From a virus (lineage: Duplodnaviria > Caudoviricetes), in IMG/VR virus record IMGVR_UViG_3300033144_000144, positions 1 to 61,941 of that record: a DNA stretch of 61,941 nt, one strand, 5' to 3'. A program made the position numbers and the translations under genes. Positions within the stretch are counted from its first letter, which is position 1; each line of letters begins with the position of its first letter. The notes below the pieces were generated by a model. That model was not told the origin of the DNA. It saw only the letters and a list, made by a program, of their open reading frames with translations, and searched no databases. Below, in pieces: positions 781 through 26,700 of this stretch.

Positions 781-987
781 TTATTTTTTTGTTTTACAAC
801 CAAAGTTGTTGGCATAGTTCGCCATTTTAACTACTCTATCAGAATACTTGTCAGTCTTTTTCATAACAGCAGAAGCTGCACTACAAGCATCTTTGAATCC
901 ATTAGACTTAGCCCACTTAGTAAAATCACCCTGGCGAGACTTTTTAATCTCAGGAAACTTTTGTTTTGTTTTTCCTTTGTAAGCCAT
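781..987 (-). CDS. Small basic hypothetical protein
   Basis: 68-aa ORF with tight operon packing. Confidence 0.7.
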   Translation of the reverse strand: MAYKGKTKQKFPEIKKSRQGDFTKWAKSNGFKDACSAASAVMKKTDKYSDRVVKMANYANNFGCKTKK

Positions 988-2440: not shown

Positions 2441-2666
2441 TAACCATATAAGGATTATCCTCGATCAACATCTCGTGTCCAGATGATTTATCATAATAGA
2501 TAATATCACCTTCGTTTATAACACTCACATCTGTACCTGACTTAATTACCTCACCCTTACGATATCTAAAGTCCGATGCGTCTTGTGCTGAAAGCAAAAG
2601 ACCTGATTCGGTTTTTAGTTCTTCTTTAATGGTTTTGATAATAATGTATTTACCTATTGGTTTCAT
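2409..2666 (-). CDS. groES: Co-chaperonin GroES
   Basis: MKPIGKYIII...TESGLLL...GEVIKSG...GDIIYY...ERDVV; ATGA-coupled to GroEL. Confidence 0.92.
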   Translation of the reverse strand: MKPIGKYIIIKTIKEELKTESGLLLSAQDASDFRYRKGEVIKSGTDVSVINEGDIIYYDKSSGHEMLIEDNPYMVITERDVVVVL

Positions 2667-4321
2667 CTTTCAGCTCTTTTATGTGTAACGATTGCATTAG
2701 TAGTTAAGATAGTTGTGGCTACACTAATAGCATTCATCAATGCGTTCTTAGTTACTTTGGCTGGATCTACAATCCCCATCTCAATCATATCTCCATACTC
2801 TTGTTTAAACACATCGTATCCTTTTGTATTGAATGCTGGGTATGGTGCATTTTCGAAATCACCAAAAGCTCTCTCATCATATATCTCTTTCAATACTTCA
2901 TCTTCATCTAATCCAGCGTTCTTAAGTATTTGTTGAAGTGGTGCTTTAAGTGCTTCTCGAATAATCATTTCAGTAGCCTGGTCTTCTGCAATAGTTTCAT
3001 CTGTTGCATCTTCACAATTACAACCGAAGTGACGGTGTATATCATATAAGAATAATCCGCCTCCAGGCAGAATGCCTTCTTGTAGTGCGGAACGCACTGC
3101 ACACACCGAGTCATCGACTCGGTCAAATTTTTCTTTTTGCTCTATATCTGAGTTAGCTCCAACATATATACAACCAATACCTCCAGCCAAACTCGCAATC
3201 CTTTCGTTGATAAACTCTTTCTCATGTTTAGCTGTGGTATTATCTTGTTGAACTTTTAGTTCTGCAATTCTATTAGTTATCTCTTCTGACTGATCTCCAT
3301 CTTTTATAATTACTGTATTTGTTTTACCTACAATAATCTTATCTGCAAAACCTAAATCGTCTGCTGTGATTAAAGATAAATCATCTCCAGTCTTTTCAGA
3401 AAAGTATTTAGCCCCAATAGCTAAAGCAATATCTTGCATAAGCTCGTGAGTCTTATATCCAAATGAAGGCGGTAGTATATTACAGAACTTCAAACCATTA
3501 CGAGCAACATTAGCTGCCAGTGTATTAATTACATTACCAGAACATGTTCCTATGATAAGTAACTTTTCTCCAGCATTGATAATTGGTTTTAGAATATTTT
3601 CGATTTGAAGGATATTGTTAATCTCAGTATCACATACTAATACTCTAACACCCTCCATGATACACTCATCTTTTCTCTGGTCATTAATAAACAATGGTGA
3701 AGTATAACCTCTATCGATTCGAATACCGTTGGTAACTTCAGAGTAAGTTTCATCTGTTTGAGATCTTTCAACTGTTACTATTCCATCTTGACCAACTTGC
3801 TTATATGCATCAGCAATAATTTTACCTAAATCAAAATCATTGTTAGCAGAGATAGAAGCAATGTGATATAACATATCATCGGTAACCTCAACTGAGCGTT
3901 CTTTAATCTTTTTAAGAATAATTTCAGAGTCATACTTAATTCCATTAATTACCTCCCACACATTGTGATGAGGTTGTATCCATTTTAGTCCAGCCTTTAC
4001 AAAAGCCTCAGCTAATACAATAGCAGTAGTTGTTCCATCTCCAGCTACATTAGCTGTTTTCTCAGATGCTTGTTTAATCATTCTAACCGCAAGGTTCTCA
4101 ATTGGATCATCGAGATGAATTGACTTAGCTACAGTAACTCCATCTTTGGTAACTGTTAATCCTTGTAAATGGTCTGGTGATTCTACCAACACTGTTTTAC
4201 CTCGTGGCCCAAGTGTTGATTTAACTGCTTTAGAGATTTTAGTTATTCCGCTGATTAACTTCTCTCTTGCCTCCTTATCAAAAGTAAGGTCTTTTGGAAT
4301 GTATCCTTGTTCTGCATTCAT
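2663..4321 (-). CDS. groEL: Chaperonin GroEL
   Basis: TLGPRG, VTKDGVTVAK, AGDGTTT, DRGYTSPLFI, EGILPGGG, GIVDPAKVT motifs. Confidence 0.97.
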   Translation of the reverse strand: MNAEQGYIPKDLTFDKEAREKLISGITKISKAVKSTLGPRGKTVLVESPDHLQGLTVTKDGVTVAKSIHLDDPIENLAVRMIKQASEKTANVAGDGTTTAIVLAEAFVKAGLKWIQPHHNVWEVINGIKYDSEIILKKIKERSVEVTDDMLYHIASISANNDFDLGKIIADAYKQVGQDGIVTVERSQTDETYSEVTNGIRIDRGYTSPLFINDQRKDECIMEGVRVLVCDTEINNILQIENILKPIINAGEKLLIIGTCSGNVINTLAANVARNGLKFCNILPPSFGYKTHELMQDIALAIGAKYFSEKTGDDLSLITADDLGFADKIIVGKTNTVIIKDGDQSEEITNRIAELKVQQDNTTAKHEKEFINERIASLAGGIGCIYVGANSDIEQKEKFDRVDDSVCAVRSALQEGILPGGGLFLYDIHRHFGCNCEDATDETIAEDQATEMIIREALKAPLQQILKNAGLDEDEVLKEIYDERAFGDFENAPYPAFNTKGYDVFKQEYGDMIEMGIVDPAKVTKNALMNAISVATTILTTNAIVTHKRAER

Positions 4322-5584: not shown

Positions 5585-5638
5585 GGCAATCTGATGAGAC
5601 CTGAATGGTCGAAACTGGAGGAGACTCCAGTCATTGTC
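5585..5638 (+). ncRNA. Hammerhead ribozyme type I (HH1), predicted cleavage after C5632
   Basis: Stem I GGCAAT/ATTGTC; CTGATGA; stem II GACC-TGAAT-GGTC; GAAA; stem III CTGGAG-GAGA-CTCCAG; GTC triplet. Confidence 0.93.
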
Positions 5639-5919: not shown

Positions 5920-6492
5920 ATGAACACACAAAATTTGAATTTAATCGCAACTCAGCTGAAGGTAACTCAGCTGGTGAACCAGTACCACAAAGTGTACAAA
6001 GCTACACTGGAGAAGAATCTGAACGATAAACCAATCAAGAACGATGGCTGGGATTCTATGCAAGAGAGAGAAGAACAAGTATCTTACAAGTTAGGTAACA
6101 AGTTTTATCCGAAGTTAAGAATGATACTGGAAGAGGTAGGTATCTCAAATGATATGGCTACCACCATCGGACATCTGTTACTGGACGAGCCAAGTAAGGA
6201 ACACTGGACAATAATCAAGTCTTTCTTTGAGCCAATTGAATTCATCAGTGAGGATGAAATCAATAGATCTATAGAAAAGCATAATGGGTACACTAACATT
6301 GAGACCTACAGACTATGTCTGATACTGGATAACATTGTTATGAAACATAATGCTATGCACTACTTTTTCGAGTACCTCCAGCAAGGAGAATTCACTGAAA
6401 AAGACTACCATAAAATTAACTGGAACGAGGTTAATGAGAGGTATTTAGAACAACATATGGATATTAACTATGATAACATCCTGAATCGATAA
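5920..6492 (+). CDS. Early hypothetical protein
   Basis: 190-aa ORF. Confidence 0.75.
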   Translation: MNTQNLNLIATQLKVTQLVNQYHKVYKATLEKNLNDKPIKNDGWDSMQEREEQVSYKLGNKFYPKLRMILEEVGISNDMATTIGHLLLDEPSKEHWTIIKSFFEPIEFISEDEINRSIEKHNGYTNIETYRLCLILDNIVMKHNAMHYFFEYLQQGEFTEKDYHKINWNEVNERYLEQHMDINYDNILNR

Positions 6493-6555
6493 ATACTCTG
6501 ATGAGCAACACTGGAAGGTGGCGAAACTTCCCCAGTCAGCTGGGGGAGTCAGTAT
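6493..6555 (+). ncRNA. Hammerhead ribozyme type I (HH2), predicted cleavage after C6550
   Basis: ATACT/AGTAT; CTGATGA; stem II GC[AA]CACT-GGAA-GGTGGC; GAAA; stem III CTTCCCCAG-TCAG-CTGGGGGAG; GTC. Confidence 0.9.
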
Positions 6556-6573
6556 AAACTAAATAATATAAAA

Positions 6574-7011
6574 ATGGGATACAACACAGACTGGAATGGG
6601 TACTTGGAGACAAGTCGACCATTCACCGAAAGCGAGATTAATCAGTGGACAGAGATGGCTGAAACAAGGCACGATAGCGAGTACCATTATGGTAACTCAC
6701 AAAGGGAATACCCATCAATATGGTGCGACTTTGAAATCAGTAATCAGGAAGGTACTGGAGTCTTCCAGTGGAACGGAAGTGAAAAAACCTATGAAGGTTT
6801 AGGATGGATTAAATACTTCCTTAACTGGACAATGAAACTTGATGAACCAATGGTGGTGAAAGGTAGGTTTGATTGGGAAGGTGAAGAAGAAGGTGATGAA
6901 GGAGTAGTTATAGTAGAACGCAAAGATAGAGACTACATCATCCATATTGGTGAGGTAGAAAAACATTACCACAAAGTGATGAAGGCACATACTCTGATGA
7001 GACTTAAGTAG
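6574..7011 (+). CDS. Early hypothetical protein (MGYxTDW...WNGxEKxY...GEEExD)
   Basis: 145-aa ORF bracketed by HH2 and HH3. Confidence 0.8.
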   Translation: MGYNTDWNGYLETSRPFTESEINQWTEMAETRHDSEYHYGNSQREYPSIWCDFEISNQEGTGVFQWNGSEKTYEGLGWIKYFLNWTMKLDEPMVVKGRFDWEGEEEGDEGVVIVERKDRDYIIHIGEVEKHYHKVMKAHTLMRLK

Positions 7012-7043
7012 TCGAAACTACTCCAGCTGGAGTAGTCAGTATG
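6988..7043 (+). ncRNA. Hammerhead ribozyme type I (HH3), predicted cleavage after C7037
   Basis: CATACT/AGTATG; CTGATGA; GACT-TAAGT-AGTC; GAAA; CTACTCC-AGCT-GGAGTAG; GTC; overlaps last codons of 6574..7011. Confidence 0.93.
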
Positions 7044-7064
7044 AATTTAAATAATAACACACAA

Positions 7065-7553
7065 ATGAAAAAGTACATTGTAATAGATACTTGGAATGGT
7101 GAAGGTTACTCCGACCAAAATGGAGTAGATACCAAGCAGTTTCAGTATAAAAAGTCAGCATTTAAATATGCTTATGACAGAACCTTAAGTAATGCTGATG
7201 GAGATGCAGATTTAGTTTGCAGATATTCAGATGAAGAATCTGATAGTGAACACTGGTCACCAGTTAAAAGAGATGCTGATGGAGATGGATTCTATTGGGA
7301 TACCTATGATGATAATTCAGGTAGCTATCAAGTTTATGAGATTAAAGATGCATATGCAGTTATGATACTATGCAACACAAACGAAGTTTATATGCTTACT
7401 GAAGATGAGTACATCGACAGAAAAAATGAATTGTATGAAGATTATGCTTCAGCTGAATATACAGATGAAATATATGAAGAAGAAAATGGTGATTCTTTTT
7501 ATCCAGCAATAGATGATTATGACTACCAATTTAGATTAATTAAAAACCTATAA
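7065..7553 (+). CDS. Acidic early hypothetical protein
   Basis: ORF 7041..7553; start 7065 (MKKYIV) or 7041. Confidence 0.75.
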   Translation: MKKYIVIDTWNGEGYSDQNGVDTKQFQYKKSAFKYAYDRTLSNADGDADLVCRYSDEESDSEHWSPVKRDADGDGFYWDTYDDNSGSYQVYEIKDAYAVMILCNTNEVYMLTEDEYIDRKNELYEDYASAEYTDEIYEEENGDSFYPAIDDYDYQFRLIKNL

Positions 7554-7555
7554 AA

Positions 7556-7738
7556 ATGAAAAAGACAATAATAATATTCTCTGCAATAATCACATTGAGT
7601 AGTTGTGGAATGATGAACAAGTTATCTGATGAGCAATTACATCAAAGAAATAAAATTGATTATGAGATGTCAAAACTTTGGAATGAATACCAAGTAAAGA
7701 ACGACTCTTTACTAATTGAATACTATAAAATTAAATAG
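7556..7738 (+). CDS. Small lipoprotein
   Basis: MKKTIIIFSAIITLSS-C signal peptide II/lipobox. Confidence 0.75.
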   Translation: MKKTIIIFSAIITLSSCGMMNKLSDEQLHQRNKIDYEMSKLWNEYQVKNDSLLIEYYKIK

Positions 7739-7740
7739 AT

Positions 7741-8079
7741 ATGGAAATGAAAATTATGAGATTAAGCGAAGTAACATTTGAGATGTTACAGAACCAGTAT
7801 CCTGAATGCTACAAATCAAAATTCGGCAGAGGTGTAACAATGCCAAATGCAGATGACTCACAAAGAGTAATATCTAATGAGGATGCGTTAACACACTACA
7901 AAGAATTAATGATTGGCATGTGGGGAGATGTAATGATTCAATTAAATCCTGAAAGTTTCACTTGGTTTGACCGAGTACAGATTCAGGATGCAAACTTCAA
8001 AGATGCACGAAGAAGATTTACAGAACACAAAGCCGAAGTCATTGCTGACTGGAGCAAAAAAGGATACAATACCGATTAG
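7741..8079 (+). CDS. Early hypothetical protein
   Basis: 112-aa ORF. Confidence 0.75.
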   Translation: MEMKIMRLSEVTFEMLQNQYPECYKSKFGRGVTMPNADDSQRVISNEDALTHYKELMIGMWGDVMIQLNPESFTWFDRVQIQDANFKDARRRFTEHKAEVIADWSKKGYNTD

Positions 8080-8173
8080 TTTGTGTGTGAAGAAGGTTTA
8101 ATTCACCTTCCTACCTTAACCTCAATGCGTAAATGCATTGGGGATTTGGTGGTAGAGGGATGTTCCTCGCAAA
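8080..8173 (+). ncRNA. Candidate structured RNA (multi-stem junction), family not recognised
   Basis: TTTGTG/CGCAAA closing; GAAGGT/ACCTTC; CTACC/GGTAG with internal loop and CCTCAATGCG/TGCATTGGGG; GAGGG/TCCTC. Confidence 0.55.
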
Positions 8174-8189
8174 ATTAAATTAAATTATT

Positions 8190-8648
8190 ATGGCAAAAAG
8201 AATTGCAAATTTCAATGTATCTGACCACTTATCCAGTCAGATAGAATACTTTCAGAAAAACAAAGGAGAGTATCAAGAAAACTTTACCAATGGATTTGAT
8301 GACAGAAGTTTAGATCTAATTACTGACAAAGAGATACAAGATTATTTCTTTTCAGCTGATAGTGAAGAACACCATTATCACTGGGAAGACTTCCTCTATG
8401 ATTTAGAAGAAGAATTCAGTCAGTACATAGGTAAAGTAGTTTCTGTTGAAGGAAGAAATATGGGCTGGAATAATAAAACTGGCTACAAGACATTTCAAAT
8501 TGAATCTACTGAAGATATCTTCAGACAGATAGCACCTGAATGTGACTTGACTTTTTCAATAGACAAAGTAGATAACAAAGAATATGAGGTGGTCATAGCA
8601 CATCACGACTCACCAATGGGAGAAAATTATAACTTAAAAATTAAATAG
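8190..8648 (+). CDS. Early hypothetical protein (GRNMGW...HHDSPMGE)
   Basis: 152-aa ORF. Confidence 0.8.
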   Translation: MAKRIANFNVSDHLSSQIEYFQKNKGEYQENFTNGFDDRSLDLITDKEIQDYFFSADSEEHHYHWEDFLYDLEEEFSQYIGKVVSVEGRNMGWNNKTGYKTFQIESTEDIFRQIAPECDLTFSIDKVDNKEYEVVIAHHDSPMGENYNLKIK

Positions 8649-8650
8649 AT

Positions 8651-8890
8651 ATGGCAATTAAAAGACATCCAAAAGACAGAGGATATGGTTACAAGAAATC
8701 ATATAACTATGAGCAATCGATAGCTGAACACGAAGATTTAGAACCAACAAAAGAAGACTGGGCAAAGTTAAGGGAGAGAATGCCTTCACTGATATGTGAG
8801 TCACTAATCTTTGGATTTGGGGCTGGTACATTCCTTCTGATTATAGCTTCGATAATCATCGGAGTATTGAACCTATTACACACATTATAA
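8651..8890 (+). CDS. Small membrane protein
   Basis: C-terminal hydrophobic segment LIFGFGAGTFLLIIASIIIGVL. Confidence 0.7.
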   Translation: MAIKRHPKDRGYGYKKSYNYEQSIAEHEDLEPTKEDWAKLRERMPSLICESLIFGFGAGTFLLIIASIIIGVLNLLHTL

Positions 8891-8899
8891 ACACAAAAG

Positions 8900-8931
8900 T
8901 TTGGTTATTTAATATATTTAAACTATTATTG
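8900..8931 (+). promoter_or_regulatory. Promoter TTTG-N20-TATTATTG
   Basis: Near-consensus -33/-7, intergenic. Confidence 0.55.
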
Positions 8932-8948
8932 TACAAAATTTAAACATT

Positions 8949-9185
8949 ATGACAGAGCAACAATACCATTCTCTTACAAGATATCTTGCAGAGGAAACTG
9001 CACACCATAAGTTTGGTGAGGATGCAGTACACTACAACTCCAGCACTGGAGAACACGAATTCACACATCACGCTGAAAAATTTATTAGAGATGAAATTAG
9101 TAATCTTGAATTTCTGTTTGAGGTGTATGATGTGAAACCTAAATTAAGTTTAATTAAAAGAATAAAAAAATGGCTGAAAAATTAA
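8949..9185 (+). CDS. Hypothetical protein
   Basis: 78-aa ORF. Confidence 0.7.
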   Translation: MTEQQYHSLTRYLAEETAHHKFGEDAVHYNSSTGEHEFTHHAEKFIRDEISNLEFLFEVYDVKPKLSLIKRIKKWLKN

Positions 9186-9538
9186 TTGACAAAGTAGATG
9201 ATGGATTCAACTACTTTAGTTACCGATTAGAAGAATTAAAGACAGATGATGTGTACTACATAAAAGCATTTATGAAGTACATTGAATCTCTTGAATCAAA
9301 ACTATCTAAAGTTAGTAAAGACTACAGAAACACATTAAATGATTATCAGTCACCTATGTGGCTGATGACATACAATGATGTTGTTGGAGGATCTACACAC
9401 GAGGTAGTTACAAATGATCCCCAGTTATATCTCAAGAGACTTAACAGAGACAGAGTAGCTGATGGTGAATTACCTGATACGATGGATGAATTCACCAAGA
9501 CCTTAATCAAATTAGAAACCTTTAAAAAATCAAAATAA
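9170..9538 (+). CDS. Hypothetical protein
   Basis: 122-aa ORF. Confidence 0.7.
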   Translation: MAEKLIDKVDDGFNYFSYRLEELKTDDVYYIKAFMKYIESLESKLSKVSKDYRNTLNDYQSPMWLMTYNDVVGGSTHEVVTNDPQLYLKRLNRDRVADGELPDTMDEFTKTLIKLETFKKSK

Positions 9539-9801
9539 TGAGAGAAGTAAAGATTAGTAGTCGTACTATATACTCCAAGACTTGTGAGATATATATTGAA
9601 ATTCCAAAAGACATACCTCAAGATAAAGTATCAGACTGGTTATTCGAAAACGAAATAAAGTGGACTGATGCTATCGACAATGCAAATGGCGAAGCAGTTT
9701 TAGACTTCGGATTTGGATTAGATGATGGTATGGAAGATAAGAATTCTGAACACGAGATGAGATTTGACATCGTAGGTGAAAACTATGGTGGACATATTTA
9801 A
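9538..9801 (+). CDS. Hypothetical protein
   Basis: 87-aa ORF, TAATG coupling. Confidence 0.75.
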   Translation: MREVKISSRTIYSKTCEIYIEIPKDIPQDKVSDWLFENEIKWTDAIDNANGEAVLDFGFGLDDGMEDKNSEHEMRFDIVGENYGGHI

Positions 9802-9857
9802 ATACTCTGATGAGCCAATGAGATTTTGGCGAAACTGGTAGCAATACCAGTCAGTAT
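9802..9857 (+). ncRNA. Hammerhead ribozyme type I (HH4), predicted cleavage after C9852
   Basis: ATACT/AGTAT; CTGATGA; GCCAA-TGAGATT-TTGGC; GAAA; CTGGTA-GCAA-TACCAG; GTC. Confidence 0.94.
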
Positions 9858-9875
9858 AAATTAAATAAAATCGTT

Positions 9876-10604
9876 ATGCCTAATTATGTTTATTGTGGGA
9901 TATCTCCCACTAAAGATTTGACTCCTGAACAAATCGAGATAGCAAAAAAGATTCAGGAAGCTGGAGGATTATGTAGATATTATGTACCAAGACCAGCTGA
10001 ATTAGATAAGACTACTTCACCAACAAGAGTAGTTAGTGATGAAGAGTATCACAAAGCAATGAAACTCAATGAGACTGAAAAATTTAAATCTTATCCTATT
10101 ACAAGGGAGATGCAAAAGTCTTTATTGAAAGCACATAACTTTGACAATTGGTACGATTGGTCACACTATCACTGGGGAACAAAGTGGGGAGATTGTGACT
10201 TCGATATAGACTGGAATAAAGATGGAACTCACTTCGAAATGAGGTTTGATACTGCTTGGTCACCAATTGCTTTAGAAATTATTATTATGTTTGCTAAAGA
10301 TTTCCCTGATTTCACTTACTGGTGGGAAGAAGAACAAGGATGGGGAGGAGAATGCGACTACACTAATGGAGAAGAGTCAAGATATATGGAGTATGATATT
10401 CCAAACTGGACTGATGAAGAAGAAGTAGAGATCTCGCATAAAGGAAAGCTAATAGTTACTACGCTGACTAAACTTGCAGACCAGCATCCTAACTATGATA
10501 ATGGTACTGGATACTATTTAGATTATGGTCACGAATATGCTGGTAAGACAAGAATCGAAGCACTGGAATATGTGATGAAAAATTATGAGAAAGAAAATGT
10601 TTAG
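9876..10604 (+). CDS. DUF1281/YubB-type ferredoxin-like domain protein
   Basis: MPNY...NWYDW...WGTKWG...FDTAWSP signature. Confidence 0.8.
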   Translation: MPNYVYCGISPTKDLTPEQIEIAKKIQEAGGLCRYYVPRPAELDKTTSPTRVVSDEEYHKAMKLNETEKFKSYPITREMQKSLLKAHNFDNWYDWSHYHWGTKWGDCDFDIDWNKDGTHFEMRFDTAWSPIALEIIIMFAKDFPDFTYWWEEEQGWGGECDYTNGEESRYMEYDIPNWTDEEEVEISHKGKLIVTTLTKLADQHPNYDNGTGYYLDYGHEYAGKTRIEALEYVMKNYEKENV

Positions 10605-11182: not shown

Positions 11183-11214
11183 TTTGCTCAAGTAATACTA
11201 AAGTATTATCTTTG
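11183..11214 (+). promoter_or_regulatory. Consensus Bacteroidota promoter TTTG-N20-TATCTTTG
   Basis: Perfect -33/-7 match. Confidence 0.8.
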
Positions 11215-11331
11215 ACAACTAATAAAAATTAAGGTGTGTAATGGTAGTAGCGTAATTATCTACAACACACTTAATAAGAGAGAAATCATTTGCGAACCAA
11301 ACTCTTGCCTTATTTTTCTAAATTCAATTAA

Positions 11332-13805: not shown

Positions 13806-13834
13806 AGGGGACTTGTTCCCCTTTCTTTTTCTTT
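13806..13834 (+). terminator. Intrinsic terminator
   Basis: AGGGGA-CTTGT-TCCCCT followed by TTCTTTTTCTTT. Confidence 0.75.
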
Positions 13835-19995: not shown

Positions 19996-20069
19996 GGACG
20001 AGTAGCTCAATTGGATAGAGCATTAGCCTTCTAAGCTAACGGTTGAAGGTTCGAGTCCTTCCTCGTTCA
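19996..20069 (+). tRNA. tRNA-Arg (anticodon TCT)
   Basis: Acceptor GGACGAG/CTCGTTC; D arm AGCTCAATTGGATAGAGC; anticodon arm TTAGC-CT TCT AA-GCTAA; T arm GAAGG-TTCGAGT-CCTTC; no encoded CCA. Confidence 0.95.
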
Positions 20070-20118
20070 CGAAATAAAATAAAATGTTTAGAGAAAAATT
20101 AATAGTAATCTGGCCATC

Positions 20119-20751: not shown

Positions 20752-23700
20752 TTAATTATTAAATGCTTCGTCTAAGGCTTGTTGTCTCATTTGTTTTTCT
20801 TGTTGCTTAAACTCTTTCATCATCTCATTATACTCTTGCATCTCAGGAGAATTATTGAACTCATCTATCTGATCCATTGCATCAGGAAAGTATTTTCTCA
20901 TTTCAGTCTTATTTAACTTTTTTGGCTTCGGCTTCTTCTCTGGCTTACCTTCAATTACATAGTCCGAATAATTAAACATTCGCAAGAACACTTCTTTAGG
21001 ATCACCTCCACTGTTTATAATCTTCTGCATATTCATTCTCATCCTATCTAAAGTTTTAAGAGGTAGGGATGCAATGTTTCCTGGCACACCCAGTACAGCA
21101 GTAAGAGGTAGTAAAGCAAAGTACGCTTGTTTCTCTGCCTCTGCTTGTTTAGCTGGATCTTTTAAATTCTGAGCCTTAACAAGTTTATCATAGAAGTCTG
21201 TAAACAAATCAAATATTGGGAATTGTTTAGTGTCTTTCCACCAAGGCTTACCTTGTGCAACATCAGCTGTTTGTTCTAAGATTTGTCCAACAACAAAGAT
21301 TGAGTTAAACACACTAAGTATAGATGCTCTTAACATATCTTCTTTGTCCTCATCATCCCAATCTGTAACAGGGAATCCTGAACCAGCCCATTGGAATATC
21401 ATTGGCATAGCAAATTGATAAACCATAATTGTTCTTAGGTTTTGTTGCCATGTTCCTTTTCCTGAACCATCAACAATGTTTCTACCTAACTCTCTATATC
21501 CTCCAAAGATTTGTCTGAAGTATGCTTTAGGTGCAGACATAAACATATTAAACAACTGAATGTAACCACCAGCATTTTGCAATGCATCTTTGTCTTGCTT
21601 GTCTGAAGACTGCTGAACTTCTTTTGTTTGTTCTTCAAACTTTATCATAGCTTTTTTCTTAGCAGCTTCAGGACTCATACCTTCTTTCTGGTATTTGTTT
21701 TTCAGATAAACATAGTTGGGAATACCACCTAAAAATATAGCTTGTTTATCACCAGCTTTAATTGGTGACATAAGAAGTCGAGTAATCTTATCTCCTTTAT
21801 TTCCAGGAGTATAAGTTTCCATCTGCTTCTCTCCATACGACTCAATAGTCTTACTAATCTGTTCCCAGTATCGGTACTTAATATATACTGACTCTTCCGA
21901 TATTTCTTGCCACGCTTTTTTAAATTCAGAAACACCCATCGTACTGGCTGTCTTAATCCAATTACGGTAACCAATATAGTTTCCATATGTAGCAATAGAT
22001 GTAAGCTGTTTTAAATAAACAGTTAGTCCAGCTCCTAACTTCTGTACAATAAATACATTGTTGGCTCTGTTAACTCTTTGAACCATAGCATCAGATTGAT
22101 TAGCACCTCTTTTAGCTGTAGCCATCAATGCGTTTCTAACAGTGTCATATACTCCTTTACCATGTATGTTTACAATAGTATTAGCAATATCTTTATTGAA
22201 GAACACTTTAGATATATCATTCATATTCTCACCGTAAGCAGCAAAGTGTTCCATATCTTTTATATATGTATCAATTGCAGTGAACGCATCAACAGGCATA
22301 ATAGCTTTGTTGTTCTTCCTGGTTAACTTAGTAGAGTTACCAATCACATTCATACTCATTTGAGATGTACCTTGATCTGACAATAAAGAAAGAGGATCAT
22401 ACTTCTCCATCTCAACTTTATCACCAACACTTAACTGTCTAAATGTTCTACCAGAATAACTATCTCGTTGAGGTAAATCAGTATTATATAATCTTCTATA
22501 TACTTTATTATACTTCTCATATAAAGTTGGAAGCATTTCTTCTACTTGCCATCTACCCATTTCTAAAAGGTCAGAATAGTTTTCTTCAAAATACTTACTT
22601 AAACCATCCATAATTTCAGCATAGTTATCTCCTAATGAAGTTTCAAAACCAGCATGAGTGTCAGGTTGTTTGTATTGGAAGTATAGATATTGTAATTGAA
22701 GTGGAGTCAATCCAGAAAATGGAATGTTTTCTCTTATGGTTTTATTTAAGTTCTCCTTGTTCTTTGAAGTTGGATCATTATCAAACTTCTTTTGAGCTTC
22801 TTGAACTTCTTGAGGATTCTTAAATAAATTACCATCTTCAATTTGAGTAAAGTCTAATTGCTTTCTATACTGTTTTATCTTCTTTAAATAGTCTGGCCCT
22901 AAATACTCTCTACTCTTTTCTGTAATGAGTTGATCAAGAGCCATAATACTTTCTTTATACATACGAGTAGACTCATTTACTTTACGATAAACAAAGTCTT
23001 TTATAAAGCCATCACCAAATACTTCGCCTGGAAGTCTATCTAAAGTTTCTGATAACTGGCTCAAACCAAGAGTACCTTCCTTCAAGAAACTACTAATGTT
23101 GTTTCCAATATTTTGGAAGTATTTTTTAATACGGTTTCTACCATAGTCAGATGCCTTTTCATCCGCTCTTCTTTTTATTTCTTTTCTAACCTCCTCTAAA
23201 ACTTCTGGATCACTAAAGTCTCTGGACTCTTTCTGACCAGTTAATGCTTGATAAAACTTAGATGTGTTTTCAGCATACTTTTTAGATCTTCGAGCAGCTG
23301 CATCTTTAAAGTTATTACGACCAGTTGTAACTAATGATTTTAGATTTTCATAAACCTCAGCTAACTGATCAGCTTTTCGAGGATTGTTATCCTCCATTAA
23401 CTTAGAGTTGTTAATACCTAAAGCAATATTTAAAACTAACATTTGAGTTTCCTCTTCAGGTGTCAATGTAGTTTTCTCATTAAGTTTATTTATTTCTGTA
23501 ATGATATTAGTTTGCTCTGCGATAATATCATCTTTTATTTCAGCACCTTTATATAGTTTCTCTTTTATTTTTTCTACTATCTTTCTGGTCTGCATGTCTA
23601 TCTTGACACCTCGCTTTACACCACCTATGTTTACTTCAAACTCTTTACTCAGAATTTTATCTATAAGTTTATTTAAAGTAGAAACATTTTTGGTAGCAGC

Positions 23701-26700
23701 CATTTCCTCAATCTTACCGATTAAGTTTCTTAGATTACCCTTCAACCATTTTGGTTCGGCTTCCTGGATAGTTCTAAGTAAAGATCTAACCTCTCCTTTG
23801 GTGTAATCACCTTTAGGCATGATCTCTCTTATAGCTCTTTGCAATTGTCTTTTAATATCACGAATCTCTCTCGCCCCTCTTTTCTTTTGGCGAATAAGTT
23901 TCTTAAGATTACTTATAGTTTTACTAACATCCTTAACTGCTCTACCACCCAACGCTTCTTGCATTTCAACCTCAAGCTGTTGTTGTAAAGTAGACTGTTC
24001 TTTTTTAGAGACAACACCTTCAGTAGATTCTTGATAAGGCTTAAGAGTTTTCATAAACTCTATAGACTCATTAATAATATCTGCTATGCTTCTCTGTTTT
24101 TTCTTAGGAAGTTTATTATTCTTTTTAATTAAAGCATCAAACTTTCTTTTAGTTGCTTCAAAAAGTTTTCTCCCTACATTCATACCTCCTGGAACATTAC
24201 CAAATACTGGAGGGATAGAATCAAATAAATCTAAATCTATTTTTAATAGATCTTTAATCTCTTTTACTTTAAGTTTCTTACCGTCTTTCTTTTTGTATTC
24301 GTTTCTTAAAAAGTATTCTATCTCGCTATTTTCAAAACCAGCTTGACGAGCTAACTTAATTATATCAATAGGGTTATCAAACTTATTGAAAGTCTTTTGC
24401 CATCGTTGTCTACCGTACTGATTCTTTCTTTGAGATGGGAATTTAACCATGCTTCCACCTTGAGATCTTGGTCTGGTGTAAAAAGCATAACCTGTTAATC
24501 TACCTCTGTCATATCCTTCTTGAGAATACAATGCTTCTAATGTATACCCAAGCTCCTCAGCTTTTCTTCGTAGAGCTTGAGGGTTAAATAATGTAGCTGG
24601 GAAAAAGTTATTTTGTTTTAAACCATATTGGTTACCCAACTTAAACAACATGTCTTTACGACTTGCTTGTTTTTGTTCTCTAACTGCAACTGATTCTTTA
24701 TCTTGAGTAGTTTCCGTTTGTGTTTCACCAGATTTTACTTTACCAGTTACTACACTAACATTTCTTACAGCATATGCTTTACCAGAAGATTGAACCAAAA
24801 CATCACCACCTGGTTGTCTATTCTTAAATAAATGAAGGATAGGTTTACCCCCACCTTTTAACGCTATATGAAATGGGTAGCTTGGATGAGAGTCTTCTCT
24901 TACCTCTACCTCACCATCAACTTCTATTGCGGCATAAACATCTCCTACATTTAAACCTTTGGTTAGTTTTTCAGCTGCCATCTTAGCAACTAAATCAACC
25001 AGTGACTGAGAGCCTGGCCCTCTAACTCCAGCTGGAGTATTACCTACACCAACATTTTTCTGAATATCTCCACCTAAAAATTCAGCAATAGCTGCTTGAC
25101 TTTCTTTAGGTAAATTCTTAGCTATAGTAGCTACAATATCTTTTACTACAAATCCTCTCTTCTCAAATGTACTTGTGTTTGGATCAGTGAAATATTTTTT
25201 TATGTCAGCTTTTAAATCTTTAGCACTTTGTCTTAAATTAATTTCACCTTTTGCTTTTCTTACCGCAGAAGATACTGCTGATCTAAATAATGATGGACTA
25301 ATTAATTTATTATCCAACATAGTATTAAGTATAGCTAATGTAGAGTTAACTCCTGACGCACTACTAACTAACTTAGCATCAGTACCTTTAGTTAAAACCA
25401 AATACGCTTTGCCATCATTTGTTTTTATTTGTTTGTTTAAAGCATTGGCTATGGTATTTGCAGTTCCTTTTTTACCAGAAGCCCAAACATCTCCAAACTT
25501 AGTTACAAAGAATACACCACCTTCACCCTCAAATATAACCTTATTGTTATACTTTATTTCACCAGCCAACATATCATCAGGAGCAGTGATTGTAACATCC
25601 TTACCTTCCATGAAAGATGTATCCATAGGTTCTTTAATCAAACCTTTCTTAATCATCTCAGCCACACTATCTTGTTGTGTATATGTAACTTCAAACCCAC
25701 CAACCTTTTGCTCTCTTAAAGCAGCAGCTGGGTTCTTTACTTTTTGCCCTCCTTCTATTTGTTCTATATCACCCTCTTGGATTTCTTCTCCAGTGGTAAC
25801 CTTAGATGCAATAGTGTTTAGTAAATCAATAACAGCTTGATCATCAGCAGTTATATCATTAATTTTAATACCGAACTTTTTAGCAACCTTTTCTATCCAT
25901 CTACGAACCACACTCTTTTGAGGAACAGTTAACTGAGAATAGTTTGCAGATAACTGACCTATAATTTCAGCTAACTTCTCTTCGTTCTGAATATTTTCTT
26001 CATAAGATTCTGCGAAGTTATCAATCTTCTTTTTTAACGGACTGTTCTTATCAAGTGTTTTACTTACGGACTGCATCATTGCCTTAGTAACACGCTGAGT
26101 TTCTAAGTCAGTTCCTAATTTACTTAACAAGATAGCATGAAACGCTTCGTGTGCTACTGTAGAATTAGTTGCGTCCTGAAGATTAATATGAATAGTATTA
26201 TCAAAGAAAGTACCTCTACCTCTTGAACCTGTTGCTTTGGTAAAATCGTCTGCACTTTCATGCATAATGATTTTAATATTAGGCACTACTTTCTTAAGGG
26301 CTTTAGATGCGAGGTCTACCCTACGCATTATACTATCCTTTAACGGATTCTGTTCAGTAACTGGGGACTTAGATTTGTTAATAGAAACAACATCATCAAC
26401 CTCCTCTAATTGTTCACGAGGTATAGGTTCTTTGGTTTGCTCTTGAGAGTCTTCTTGTTCTTGTTGAACCAACTCTTTTATTTGATCAGACCTTTCTTCT
26501 ATTGTTACTTCCGTTTCCGCATCCTGGGTACTACTGGTCTCACCTTCTTGCCCACCCTCTTGGGTAATCTCAATGTTGGTGTTTCCATCTCCCACTTCCT
26601 GGCTACTGTCGGTAGATTCTTGTACATCCACCTTCTCTGTGCTTGACTCTTGAATGGCATCTTCTTTGGTTTTAGTTTCTTTTAAATCAACTGATCCTTC

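What the first reader, a model, noticed from the sequence alone, without database searches (positions are those of the whole stretch)
8080..8173. Unidentified multi-stem RNA in the same intergenic context as the ribozymes
Seen: a GC-richer 94-nt spacer starting right after the stop at 8079 and ending 16 nt before the next ATG. It folds as closing TTTGTG/CGCAAA, hairpin GAAGGT/ACCTTC, a long arm CTACC-[TTAA]-CCTCAATGCG-loop-TGCATTGGGG-[ATTTGGT]-GGTAG, and hairpin GAGGG/TCCTC. It has no U-tail, and I could not match it to hammerhead, twister, pistol or hairpin cores. Known: new ribozyme classes and RAGATH motifs were found in this kind of gene neighbourhood. Inference: a candidate new self-cleaving RNA or nuclease processing site.
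Basis: partly seen in the sequence, partly recalled or inferred. Interest (0 to 1): 0.7.

Follow-up and report, generated by a model that had tools for sequence, protein, structure and literature searches.

The report
New structured RNA between phage genes
The spacer holds a real, conserved, folded RNA element found only in a group of marine phages, sitting between early genes exactly where these phages otherwise place self-cutting hammerhead RNAs, so it probably marks or cuts the boundary between genes, but its action is untested.

Summary
Window 8080-8173 (+) holds a structured RNA between two small early genes of a complete 61.9-kb phage related to Flavobacteriia podoviruses.

I found 71 copies, 48 of them distinct, in the window plus 50 other phage or metagenome loci. 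They lie upstream of different genes, always in the sense orientation, and some contigs carry up to three copies.

The conserved core has these parts:
- a 5-bp lower stem
- an internal loop with a U-rich 3' side
- a 9-10-bp upper stem with strong covariation, often capped by a GNRA loop
- an invariant UAG
- a 5-bp/4-nt hairpin

About 20 nt of A-rich leader and the AUG follow.

No Rfam family matches it. It is absent from the two isolate or near-isolate relatives I tested and from bacterial genomes.

Four canonical hammerheads occupy equivalent spacers in the same operon.

Best reading (about 0.45): an intercistronic punctuation or processing module, cut near the UAG by an RNase or by itself. 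The share for a new self-cleaving class is about 0.2. Cleavage is untested, and no RNA data were available.

The parts
8080..8084 (+). 5' strand of the closing helix (UUUGU). It pairs with 8169-8173. This is a subgroup feature.
   Evidence: Sequence. Relatives have UUGUGUG/CACACAA extended to 10-12 bp, or (UUUG)n/(CAAA)n, in 18 of 55 contexts. The others have none. Own versus swapped flanks are not distinguishable overall, 7.8 vs 7.3 bp.
8092..8110 (+). Hairpin 1 (GAAGGU-UUAAUUC-ACCUUC), variable and optional.
   Evidence: It is replaced by GAUAGG/CCUAUC, GAUAGG/CCUGUC or UGAUGG/CCAUCA in relatives. It is absent in L002-type and class-B copies.
8111..8115 (+). Lower stem, 5' strand CUACC. It pairs with 8148-8152.
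   Evidence: The pair next to the loop is C-G in 12 and G-C in 12 of 36 distinct rows. Allowing for register, 23 of 36 have a perfect 5-bp partner, against 245 of 916 for non-own partners.
8116..8119 (+). 5' side of the internal loop (UUAA), variable in length and sequence (0-7 nt in relatives).
8120..8143 (+). Upper stem-loop: CCUCAAUGCG-UAAA-UGCAUUGGGG, with a conserved CCUC/GGGG base that includes a U.G pair.
   Evidence: 6 of 10 pairs show double compensatory changes and 94.4% of cells are paired. RNAalifold predicts it independently. Loops in relatives are often GAAA or GCGA.
8144..8147 (+). 3' side of the internal loop (AUUU), U-rich and conserved.
   Evidence: AUUU in 25, UUUU in 22 and CAUU in 1 of 48 distinct copies. 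Most copies were fetched with patterns that include this stretch.
8148..8152 (+). Lower stem, 3' strand GGUGG.
8153..8155 (+). The UAG after the lower stem: linker UA plus the first G of hairpin 3. It is invariant and is the predicted region of the mature 5' boundary or cleavage.
   Evidence: Present in 48 of 48 distinct copies, including the 6 that match none of the fetch patterns. The cleavage site is inference only.
8155..8168 (+). Hairpin 3: GAGGG-AUGU-UCCUC (5 bp, 4-nt loop).
   Evidence: 100% of cells are paired. It covaries to GGGCA/UGCCU and AGGCA/UGCUU in copies retrieved without constraining it, and it is absent in L083:9737-type copies.
8169..8189 (+). 3' strand of the closing helix (GCAAA, 8169-8173), then the A/U-rich unstructured leader up to ATG 8190.
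   Evidence: The distance from GUAG to the ATG is 33-38 nt in 49 of 62 distinct contexts; 4 more are 28-29 nt. ATTAAAT-like leaders precede many other starts in the window.
5586..5637 (+). Context: hammerhead 1 (CUGAUGA...GAAA...GUC|), 30 nt upstream of ATG 5663.
6493..6555 (+). Context: hammerhead 2, with cleavage before 6551, 23 nt upstream of ATG 6574.
6989..7042 (+). Context: hammerhead 3, with cleavage before 7038, 3 nt upstream of ATG 7041. This is the only one Rfam reports, and only below threshold.
9802..9857 (+). Context: hammerhead 4, with cleavage before 9853, 23 nt upstream of ATG 9876.
   Evidence: The MFE fold gives the canonical three stems.

Best explanation
The element is a cis-acting structured RNA module of a previously uncatalogued family. 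It is carried inside the polycistronic early mRNA of a clade of marine Flavobacteriia-type podophages.

It lies between the stop codon of one small gene and the roughly 20-nt A-rich leader of the next. I read it as an intercistronic punctuation (processing) signal.

Proposed mechanism:
- The long arm (5-bp stem, U-rich internal loop, 9-10-bp stem) and the invariant UAG direct an endonucleolytic cut at or near the UAG.
- A host or phage RNase makes the cut, or the RNA cuts itself.
- The upstream cistron is left with a stable 3' hairpin.
- The downstream cistron is left with a short 5' hairpin followed by an unstructured leader.
- This is the same product layout that the neighbouring hammerheads create.

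Shown here: conservation, structure, strand, position, copy number, and co-location with hammerheads.
Inferred: co-transcription with the flanking genes.
Hypothesised: the cleavage and its site.
For: 1. Real family. There are 71 CM hits, 48 of them distinct, in the window plus 50 loci.

2. Structure. On 36 distinct rows, 89.6% of cells are paired against 76.2% in shuffles (0 of 500 shuffles reach it). The covariation score is 0.395 against 0.146. Partners slid by 1-3 columns give 43-53% paired. Diverged copies fold alone into the same shape, with z from -4.4 to -5.6.

3. RNA on the + strand. The structure has conserved G.U pairs: U.G in 34 of 36 rows at one upper-stem pair and G.U in 26 of 36 in hairpin 3. 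These would be A.C mismatches on the other strand. Loops are often GNRA.

4. Fixed placement. The lower stem starts a median of 14 nt after an upstream ORF end. GUAG lies 33-38 nt before the next ATG in 49 of 62 contexts. Downstream genes differ between copies.

5. Copy number. Some contigs have up to 3 copies ahead of consecutive small genes.

6. Hammerheads in equivalent spacers. Four canonical hammerheads occupy equivalent spacers of the same operon. A rule-based scan found 37 distinct hammerhead-like sites in the window and related loci, with cleavage 20-36 nt before the ATG in 32 of them. In 14 of the 37 the new 5' end can form a 5-bp/4-nt-loop hairpin (AGUAUCAUAAGAUACC) followed by a leader. 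That mirrors hairpin 3 plus leader.

7. Complementary distribution. Among loci of at least 8 kb, the 5 with three element copies have 0 hammerheads. Loci with one copy have 0-4.

8. Single transcription unit. No sigma-70-like promoter, Bacteroidota -7 box or terminator lies in the spacer. The first + strand terminator-like site is at 13806.

9. Precedent. Tandem hammerheads in phage-related polycistronic RNAs cleave as predicted (PMC3088659, passages read).
Against: - There is no direct evidence of any cleavage.
- The lower stem plus upper stem give only about 15 bp, shorter than classical RNase III substrates.
- The strong sequence conservation of GGGG-(A/U)UUU-...-GUAG would also fit a sequence-specific RNA-binding protein that does not cut.
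- The fixed distance to the ATG would equally fit a translational role.
- Much of the 3'-half invariance is built in, because the fetch patterns contained it. Only 6 distinct copies escape all patterns.
- The complementary distribution with hammerheads rests on at most 2-3 independent lineages.
- I did not find the same gene junction carrying a hammerhead in one genome and the element in another.
Confidence: 0.45

Rival explanations
1. A new class of small self-cleaving ribozyme that replaces hammerheads as the cutter between cistrons. This is a special case of the processing model in which the RNA itself is the catalyst.
For: - It occupies the same spacers, orientation and distance to the ATG as bona fide hammerheads.
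- It has conserved unpaired nucleotides (U-rich loop, UAG) next to covarying stems, with optional or variable hairpins and GNRA loops.
- It occurs in several copies, ahead of unrelated genes.
- Contigs with three copies have no hammerhead.
- Twister-sister, hatchet and pistol were found by searching exactly this kind of neighbourhood (PMC6765202, passages read).
Against: - No match to any Rfam ribozyme model, even at E up to 10, so it would have to be a new class.
- Other motifs from such neighbourhoods did not cleave when tested (PMC6765202, passage).
- The conserved unit can shrink to one stem-internal loop-stem plus UAG (L083:9737-type copies).
- I found no conserved pseudoknot or multi-helix junction. 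The alternative CCUC:GAGG / GGGGA:UCCUC pseudoknot is contradicted by the 4 rows with a G-C flip at the first upper-stem pair.
Confidence: 0.2
2. A non-cleaving translational operator or insulator. The folded module binds a phage or host protein, or simply keeps the following A-rich leader unpaired. In that way it sets or regulates initiation on the downstream gene. In the subgroup with a closing helix, termination on the upstream gene would melt the helix and free the leader.
For: - The spacing to the ATG is fixed at 33-38 nt in 49 of 62 contexts.
- Sequence conservation of both strands of hairpin 3 and of GUAG is strong.
- The host group does not rely on Shine-Dalgarno pairing (recalled). 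Leaders here are A/U-rich with no SD.
- The closing helix spans the upstream stop codon and part of the leader in 18 of 55 contexts.
Against: - No candidate binding protein was identified. The neighbouring genes have no Pfam match, and the only PHROG match is one unnamed family.
- A simple insulator would not need invariant unpaired nucleotides.
- The parallel with the hammerheads points to cutting.
- The closing helix is absent from most copies.
Confidence: 0.25
3. A mobile DNA cassette: a MITE-like element, or a recombination linker that shuffles early genes, like the promoter-stem-loop cassettes of T4-type phages. The structure would be a by-product.
For: - The same element is flanked by different genes in different phages, and copy number varies.
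- Class-A copies have 10-12-bp terminal inverted repeats, TAATTGTGTG...CACACAATTA.
Against: - All copies are in the sense orientation at a fixed distance from the next ATG.
- Compensatory changes keep internal stems that a DNA linker does not need.
- The inverted repeats are missing in most copies.
- No promoter motif was found in the element.
Confidence: 0.05
4. A transcription signal: either a DNA hairpin promoter for a virion RNA polymerase (N4-like logic), or an RNA that makes RNA polymerase resistant to termination (put-like).
For: - Up to three copies lie ahead of consecutive early genes.
- The phage encodes an unannotated 2893-aa protein.
- The two-hairpin layout resembles put RNA (recalled).
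Against: - The G.U pairs, internal loop and GNRA loops fit RNA, not an extruded DNA hairpin.
- The giant protein has no match to any PDB chain, Pfam or PHROG family, so there is no evidence that it is a polymerase.
- Antiterminators act once per operon, not before each gene.
- No terminator-like site lies downstream within 5.6 kb.
Confidence: 0.05

Closest known systems
Intercistronic hammerhead ribozymes of phage and prophage polycistronic RNAs (Perreault et al. 2011, PMC3088659; here window 5586-5637, 6493-6555, 6989-7042, 9802-9857)
   Same: It lies in the same operon, strand and type of spacer (stop codon, then RNA, then A-rich leader, then ATG). The distance to the ATG is similar. It occurs in several copies ahead of unrelated small genes. 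A 5-bp/4-nt-loop hairpin can head the downstream leader.
   Different: It has no CUGAUGA/GAAA core and no three-way junction. It matches no hammerhead model. Cleavage is not shown.
RNase III processing sites of phage T7 early and late mRNAs, R0.3 to R18.5 (recalled from the literature, not read here)
   Same: Both are repeated, mutually homologous intercistronic stem-internal loop-stem elements just upstream of gene starts. In T7 the cut in the 3' side of the internal loop leaves a protective 3' hairpin on the upstream RNA. Here the 3' side of the loop is the conserved, U-rich side.
   Different: The helix here is shorter, about 15 bp plus the loop. There is an extra invariant UAG and a second hairpin. 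The host is a Bacteroidota member. No nuclease has been tested.
RAGATH-type orphan motifs: structured RNAs found near genes associated with twister and hammerhead (Weinberg et al. 2015 and 2017; PMC6765202 and PMC5737381, passages read)
   Same: It would be found by the same logic, as a conserved structure in a ribozyme-rich phage neighbourhood. Its function is unknown and it is a candidate ribozyme.
   Different: It matches none of the RAGATH families held in Rfam 15.
tRNA and tRNA-like structures as RNase P/Z punctuation
   Same: In class-A copies a 7-bp closing helix abuts the 5-bp hairpin 3 with no spacer, giving a 7 + 5 bp stack. Together with a 5-bp lower stem and hairpin 1 this looks like a cloverleaf.
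   Different: ARAGORN and RF00005 do not call it. The loop of hairpin 3 has 4 nt, not 7. There are no D-loop or T-loop signatures. Most copies lack the closing helix.

Membership tests
Any Rfam 15 family (including hammerhead types, twister P1/P3/P5, twister-sister, pistol, hatchet, HDV-like, hairpin, RAGATH motifs, riboswitches) | Covariance-model score at or near the family's gathering threshold | tested here: not met
   At gathering thresholds the window gives only a tRNA. At E up to 10 on 7950-8300, 6 chance-level snoRNA, lncRNA or leader hits appear, and none is a ribozyme or riboswitch. Twelve further loci holding 14 copies give no hit at any copy.
Hammerhead ribozyme | Three-way junction with the CUGAUGA and GAAA core and a cleavage triplet (NUH) | tested here: not met
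   The core strings are absent from 8080-8189. The four true hammerheads nearby have them.
Self-cleaving ribozyme (any class) | Site-specific self-scission giving 2',3'-cyclic phosphate and 5'-OH ends | not testable with these tools
   This needs in vitro transcription and cleavage assays. No RNA run holding the sequence was listed.
tRNA / tRNA-like structure | Cloverleaf with a 7-nt T loop, D-loop and T-loop signatures, and detection by tRNA models | tested here: not met
   ARAGORN and RF00005 find only tRNA-Arg at 19996-20070. The hairpin 3 loop has 4 nt. The closing helix is absent from most copies.
T7-type RNase III processing site | Intercistronic stem-internal loop-stem, in several homologous copies | tested here: met
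   The architecture and repetition are shown. The helix, at about 15 bp, is shorter than the T7 sites (the T7 figure is recalled).
T7-type RNase III processing site | Cleavage by RNase III in the internal loop | not testable with these tools
   No enzyme assay and no RNA-end data were available.
Promoter-stem-loop mobile cassette (T4-type PeSL) or host promoter | A promoter consensus within the repeated cassette | tested here: not met
   No + strand sigma-70-like site lies in 8080-8189. There is no TAnnTTTG box there; the nearest ones are at 9008 and 11207.
N4-type hairpin promoter | Short perfect DNA hairpin (5-7 bp stem, 3-nt loop; recalled) and a virion RNA polymerase gene | tested here: not met
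   The hairpin has 15 bp with an internal loop and conserved G.U pairs. The 2893-aa ORF has no polymerase match.
Intrinsic terminator | GC-rich hairpin followed by a U run | tested here: not met
   The scan reports none in the spacer. The hairpin is followed by GCAAAAUUAAAU.

The most novel reading that the evidence does not exclude
The element is a new class of small self-cleaving ribozyme. Its core is a stem, a U-rich internal loop, a stem and a UAG. Marine Flavobacteriia phages would use it interchangeably with hammerheads to cut their early polycistronic mRNA just upstream of each gene's leader. That would give the first case where two ribozyme classes visibly substitute for each other at gene boundaries in one phage lineage, and so a handle on what phage ribozymes are for.
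Probability: 0.2. Interest if true: 0.85.

Novelty: new variant of a known kind. Interest (0 to 1): 0.6.

Why it matters
What self-cleaving ribozymes do in phage genomes is still unknown. In this lineage, hammerheads and this element sit at equivalent gene boundaries, with the same leader layout downstream. Contigs with three copies of the element have no hammerhead.

Two outcomes are possible, and both are testable:
- If the element is cut, by itself or by an RNase, the shared function would be cistron punctuation and 5'-end definition. This would be in a host group that initiates translation without Shine-Dalgarno pairing.
- If it is not cut, it is a new protein- or ribosome-binding leader element.

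In either case it is a well-supported new RNA family for Rfam. It has a clear covariation signal and simple tests: an in vitro cleavage assay and end mapping.

Tried and rejected
- Expression and ends. The run search listed no RNA holder of window 6400-10000. Three metatranscriptome runs were offered only by study, with next to none of the words.
- Whole-record searches. Metagenome loci are not held for this. I used the four IMG/VR records and the window instead, and each gave one copy with model R1.
- Isolated phages. blastn of 7000-9500 gave no match. blastn of the element gave only a 20-nt chance hit. Model R2 with filters off found nothing convincing in MW202828.1 (whole record) or in NC_055853.1 positions 1-32000; the best hit was 18.3 bits, E 0.063.
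- Bacterial genomes. A 19-mer gave 4 stretches and a degenerate 20-mer gave 18. I estimate about 17 by chance for the 20-mer, assuming equal base frequencies. None has the upstream hairpin.
- Second copy in the window. None: 92 bits at 8106-8176, and the next + strand hit is 11.6 bits, E 1.2.
- Alternative pseudoknot (CCUC:GAGG with GGGGA:UCCUC). Rejected because of the G-C flips at the first upper-stem pair, CG in 32 rows and GC in 4.
- Resemblance of TAACCTCACTA to the T3 RNA-polymerase promoter (recalled). Rejected because the following bases covary as a stem.
- Resemblance of GGGAUGU to the CsrA SELEX motif (recalled). Rejected because GGA is not kept in variants such as GGGCUAU and GGGCAAUAG.
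- SD-sequestering hairpin. Rejected because GAGG lies about 31 nt from the ATG.
- k-turn in the internal loop. Rejected because there are no tandem G.A pairs.
- Coding potential. The frame of the upstream gene stays open for 32 codons past its TAG. Relatives differ by indels, and the changes are compensatory, so I read this as chance.
- Flanking genes. There are no Pfam matches, and the only PHROG hit is one unnamed family.
- Literature. Four full-text searches found no description of this motif. The supplements of PMC5737381 and of the 2015 ribozyme paper were closed and may list it.

Full report
**What the window is.** The window is a complete 61,941-bp virus record with direct terminal repeats. 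Its large terminase is 74% identical to that of an uncultured podovirus, MW202828.1. It is 45% identical to those of Flavobacterium phages of genus Elemovirus, and Cellulophaga, Tenacibaculum and Maribacter phages are also among the 87 matching records. PHROGs identify portal, terminase, a virion structural protein, primase/helicase, helicase and a GroEL-like chaperonin. Genes on the + strand from about 4.6 to 20.5 kb are small, tightly packed and mostly without family matches. Structural genes lie on the - strand.

**The observation.** The upstream gene (7741-8079) ends with TAG at 8077-8079, and the next gene starts at 8190. The 94 nt at 8080-8173 have GC 0.426 against 0.35 for the window. 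They fold with z = -3.46. The core 8111-8168 folds with z = -4.70, and 0 of 200 shuffles do as well. There is no U run after it and no terminator-like site. The described stems are present, with the two corrections given under the observation check.

**Known families.** Rfam at gathering thresholds finds only tRNA-Arg at 19996-20069, and ARAGORN agrees. A permissive scan of 7950-8300 (E up to 10) gives six chance-level hits, none a ribozyme or riboswitch. A whole-window scan at E up to 0.1 adds one sub-threshold RAGATH-1-hammerhead match at 6935-7042, at 34.9 bits against a gathering score of 56.3. Twelve further loci holding 14 copies give no Rfam hit at any copy.

**How the relatives were collected.**
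- A protein search with the downstream gene gave one relative contig whose spacer already showed compensatory changes.
- DNA patterns drawn from the conserved 3' half then recovered copies. From IMG/VR: 2 stretches; 9 stretches, of which 4 are real; 14 stretches; and 50 stretches, of which 8 new loci are real by the model. From metagenome contigs: 31 stretches.
- I built a covariance model on 21 distinct cores (A1 and R1) and rebuilt it on 27 hits (R2).
- The models found further diverged copies inside the same loci that no pattern had targeted.
- In total there are 71 hits and 48 distinct sequences, in the window plus 50 loci covering 393 kb.
- Caveat: the fetch patterns contain the 3' half. 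Its invariance is therefore partly built in, and only 6 distinct copies match none of the patterns.

**Where the element is absent.** The window itself has a single copy. With filters off it scores 92 bits at 8106-8176, and the next + strand hit scores 11.6 bits, E 1.2. The element is absent from MW202828.1 and from the first 32 kb of NC_055853.1. blastn finds it in no isolated phage. In 185,579 bacterial species genomes, 4 and 18 pattern matches were found. I estimate about 17 by chance for the second pattern, and none has the hairpin.

**Structure.** On 36 distinct rows of alignment A4, 89.6% of cells form standard pairs against 76.2% after shuffling partners, and 0 of 500 shuffles reach that value. 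There are 88 cells with changes on both sides against 24 expected. Sliding the partners by 1-3 columns drops pairing to 43-53%.
- *Upper stem.* Double changes occur in 6 of 10 pairs. One position, for example, shows AU 12, GC 10, UA 9 and CG 4. RNAalifold predicts this stem and hairpin 3 on its own.
- *Lower stem.* It is blurred in that alignment because the 5' internal loop varies from 0 to 7 nt. The pair next to the loop is C-G in 12 rows and G-C in 12. Allowing for register, 23 of 36 rows have a perfect 5-bp partner, against 245 of 916 for non-own partners.
- *Hairpin 3.* It is nearly invariant in pattern-fetched copies. In copies retrieved without constraining it, it changes to GGGCA/UGCCU or AGGCA/UGCUU. 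It is missing in one copy type seen in three loci.
- *Strand.* Conserved G.U pairs and frequent GAAA/GCGA loops place the functional molecule on the + strand as RNA.
A flank-to-leader helix of at least 9 bp occurs in 18 of 55 contexts, and own versus swapped flanks do not differ overall (7.8 vs 7.3 bp).
- *Conserved unit.* The unit is lower stem, internal loop with an (A/U/C)(A/U)UU 3' side, upper stem, UAG, and usually a 5-bp/4-nt-loop hairpin. The G-rich strand, 4-nt loop, lower 3' strand and UAG are present in all 48 distinct copies.

**Placement.** In 62 distinct contexts the lower stem starts a median of 14 nt after the end of an upstream open frame. The GUAG lies 33-38 nt before the next ATG in 49 contexts and 28-29 nt before it in 4. 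In 8 contexts my rule picked the ATG inside the hairpin loop, and 1 context gave 94 nt. The downstream genes belong to different families. All copies are in the sense orientation. Some contigs carry two or three copies ahead of consecutive small genes. The A/U-rich stretch between the element and the ATG resembles the leaders of many other genes of the window, so it is not specific to the element.

**Hammerheads in the same operon.** The window has four sequences with the full hammerhead core and three stems: 5586-5637, 6493-6555, 6989-7042 and 9802-9857. Each lies in a spacer directly upstream of a start codon. Rfam's models miss three of them and score the fourth below threshold.

A simple rule (core plus a stem I complement) finds 37 distinct hammerhead-like sites in the window and loci scanned, a few of them doubtful. 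In 32 of the 37 the cleavage site lies 20-36 nt before an ATG. In 14 the new 5' end can form a 5-bp/4-nt-loop hairpin followed by a leader. That is the layout of hairpin 3 plus leader in the element.

Of the 50 element-bearing loci, 28 also hold at least one such hammerhead in the stretch held. Among loci of at least 8 kb, the five with three element copies have none, those with two copies have 0-2, and those with one copy have 0-4. These loci represent few independent lineages. I did not find the same gene junction carrying a hammerhead in one genome and the element in another.

**Transcription signals.** No sigma-70-like promoter on the + strand, no Bacteroidota-type TAnnTTTG box and no terminator-like site lie in the spacer. 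The first + strand terminator-like site is at 13806, and a plausible host-type promoter box is at 11207. I therefore infer that the element is transcribed within a long early polycistronic RNA.

**Interpretation.** The data establish a new, conserved, cis-located structured RNA at cistron boundaries. Three things point to definition of the boundary between cistrons: its equivalence in position and downstream layout to the hammerheads, its repetition, and its indifference to gene identity.

My preferred mechanism is endonucleolytic processing near the invariant UAG, at about 0.45. Of that, about 0.2 is for catalysis by the RNA itself and the rest for a host or phage RNase. The closest working analogy is the set of RNase III sites of phage T7, which I recall and did not read here.

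A non-cleaving translational operator or insulator is a serious rival, at about 0.25. A mobile DNA cassette and a transcription signal are each unlikely, at about 0.05. Nothing here tests cleavage. No RNA data were available, and the literature I could search does not mention the motif.

**Novelty and score.** The family is absent from Rfam 15 and from the papers searched. The kind of element, an orphan structured RNA in a ribozyme-rich phage neighbourhood, is known (PMC6765202 and PMC5737381, passages read). I rate it a new variant of a known kind, with interest 0.6. It would rise to about 0.85 if self-cleavage were shown.

Noticed in passing
window 5586-5637, 6493-6555, 6989-7042, 9802-9857 (+): Four canonical-looking hammerhead ribozymes lie directly upstream of start codons in the early operon. 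Rfam gathering thresholds detect none of them. Only one gets a sub-threshold RAGATH-1-hammerhead hit, at 34.9 bits against 56.3.
   Followed up: partly
related loci, e.g. L002 527-559, L030 3687-3718 (+): In 14 of 37 hammerhead-like sites, the RNA 3' of the cleavage site starts AGUAUCAUAAGAUACC. This can refold into a 5-bp hairpin with a 4-nt loop at the new 5' end, followed by a CA-rich leader and the ATG. It looks like a natural counterpart of engineered ribozyme insulators.
   Followed up: partly
window 11184-11271 (+): A Bacteroidota-type promoter candidate (TTG ... TATCTTTG at 11207-11214) is followed by a hairpin closed by GGUGUGU/ACACAC (11233-11271). The hairpin contains GGUAGUAG, which echoes the element's closing helix and GUAG motif. 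Model R2 does not hit it.
   Followed up: no
window 20752-29433 (-): A 2893-aa ORF has no PHROG, Pfam or PDB-sequence match. The closest relative record annotates a similarly placed giant gene only by a spurious name.
   Followed up: partly
window 2663-4321 (-): A phage-encoded GroEL-like chaperonin (PHROG 5725, E 4e-135). The relatives MW202828.1 and the Elemovirus phages also carry GroEL/GroES.
   Followed up: no
window, upstream of many + strand starts (e.g. 7741, 8651, 9876): ATTAAAT-like A/U-rich motifs recur 8-15 nt before start codons, and there is no Shine-Dalgarno sequence. This fits a Bacteroidota host.
   Followed up: no
window 8077-8178 (+): The reading frame of gene 7741-8079 stays open for 32 codons beyond its TAG stop, through the whole element. 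I judged this to be chance, because relatives differ by indels.
   Followed up: partly
L040 ~880-946 (+): A decayed copy of the element lies upstream of a homologue of window gene 5920. It keeps GAGGUUUUCGUAGUAGAGGG but has lost hairpin 3. In the window the same junction has only a 20-nt spacer.
   Followed up: no
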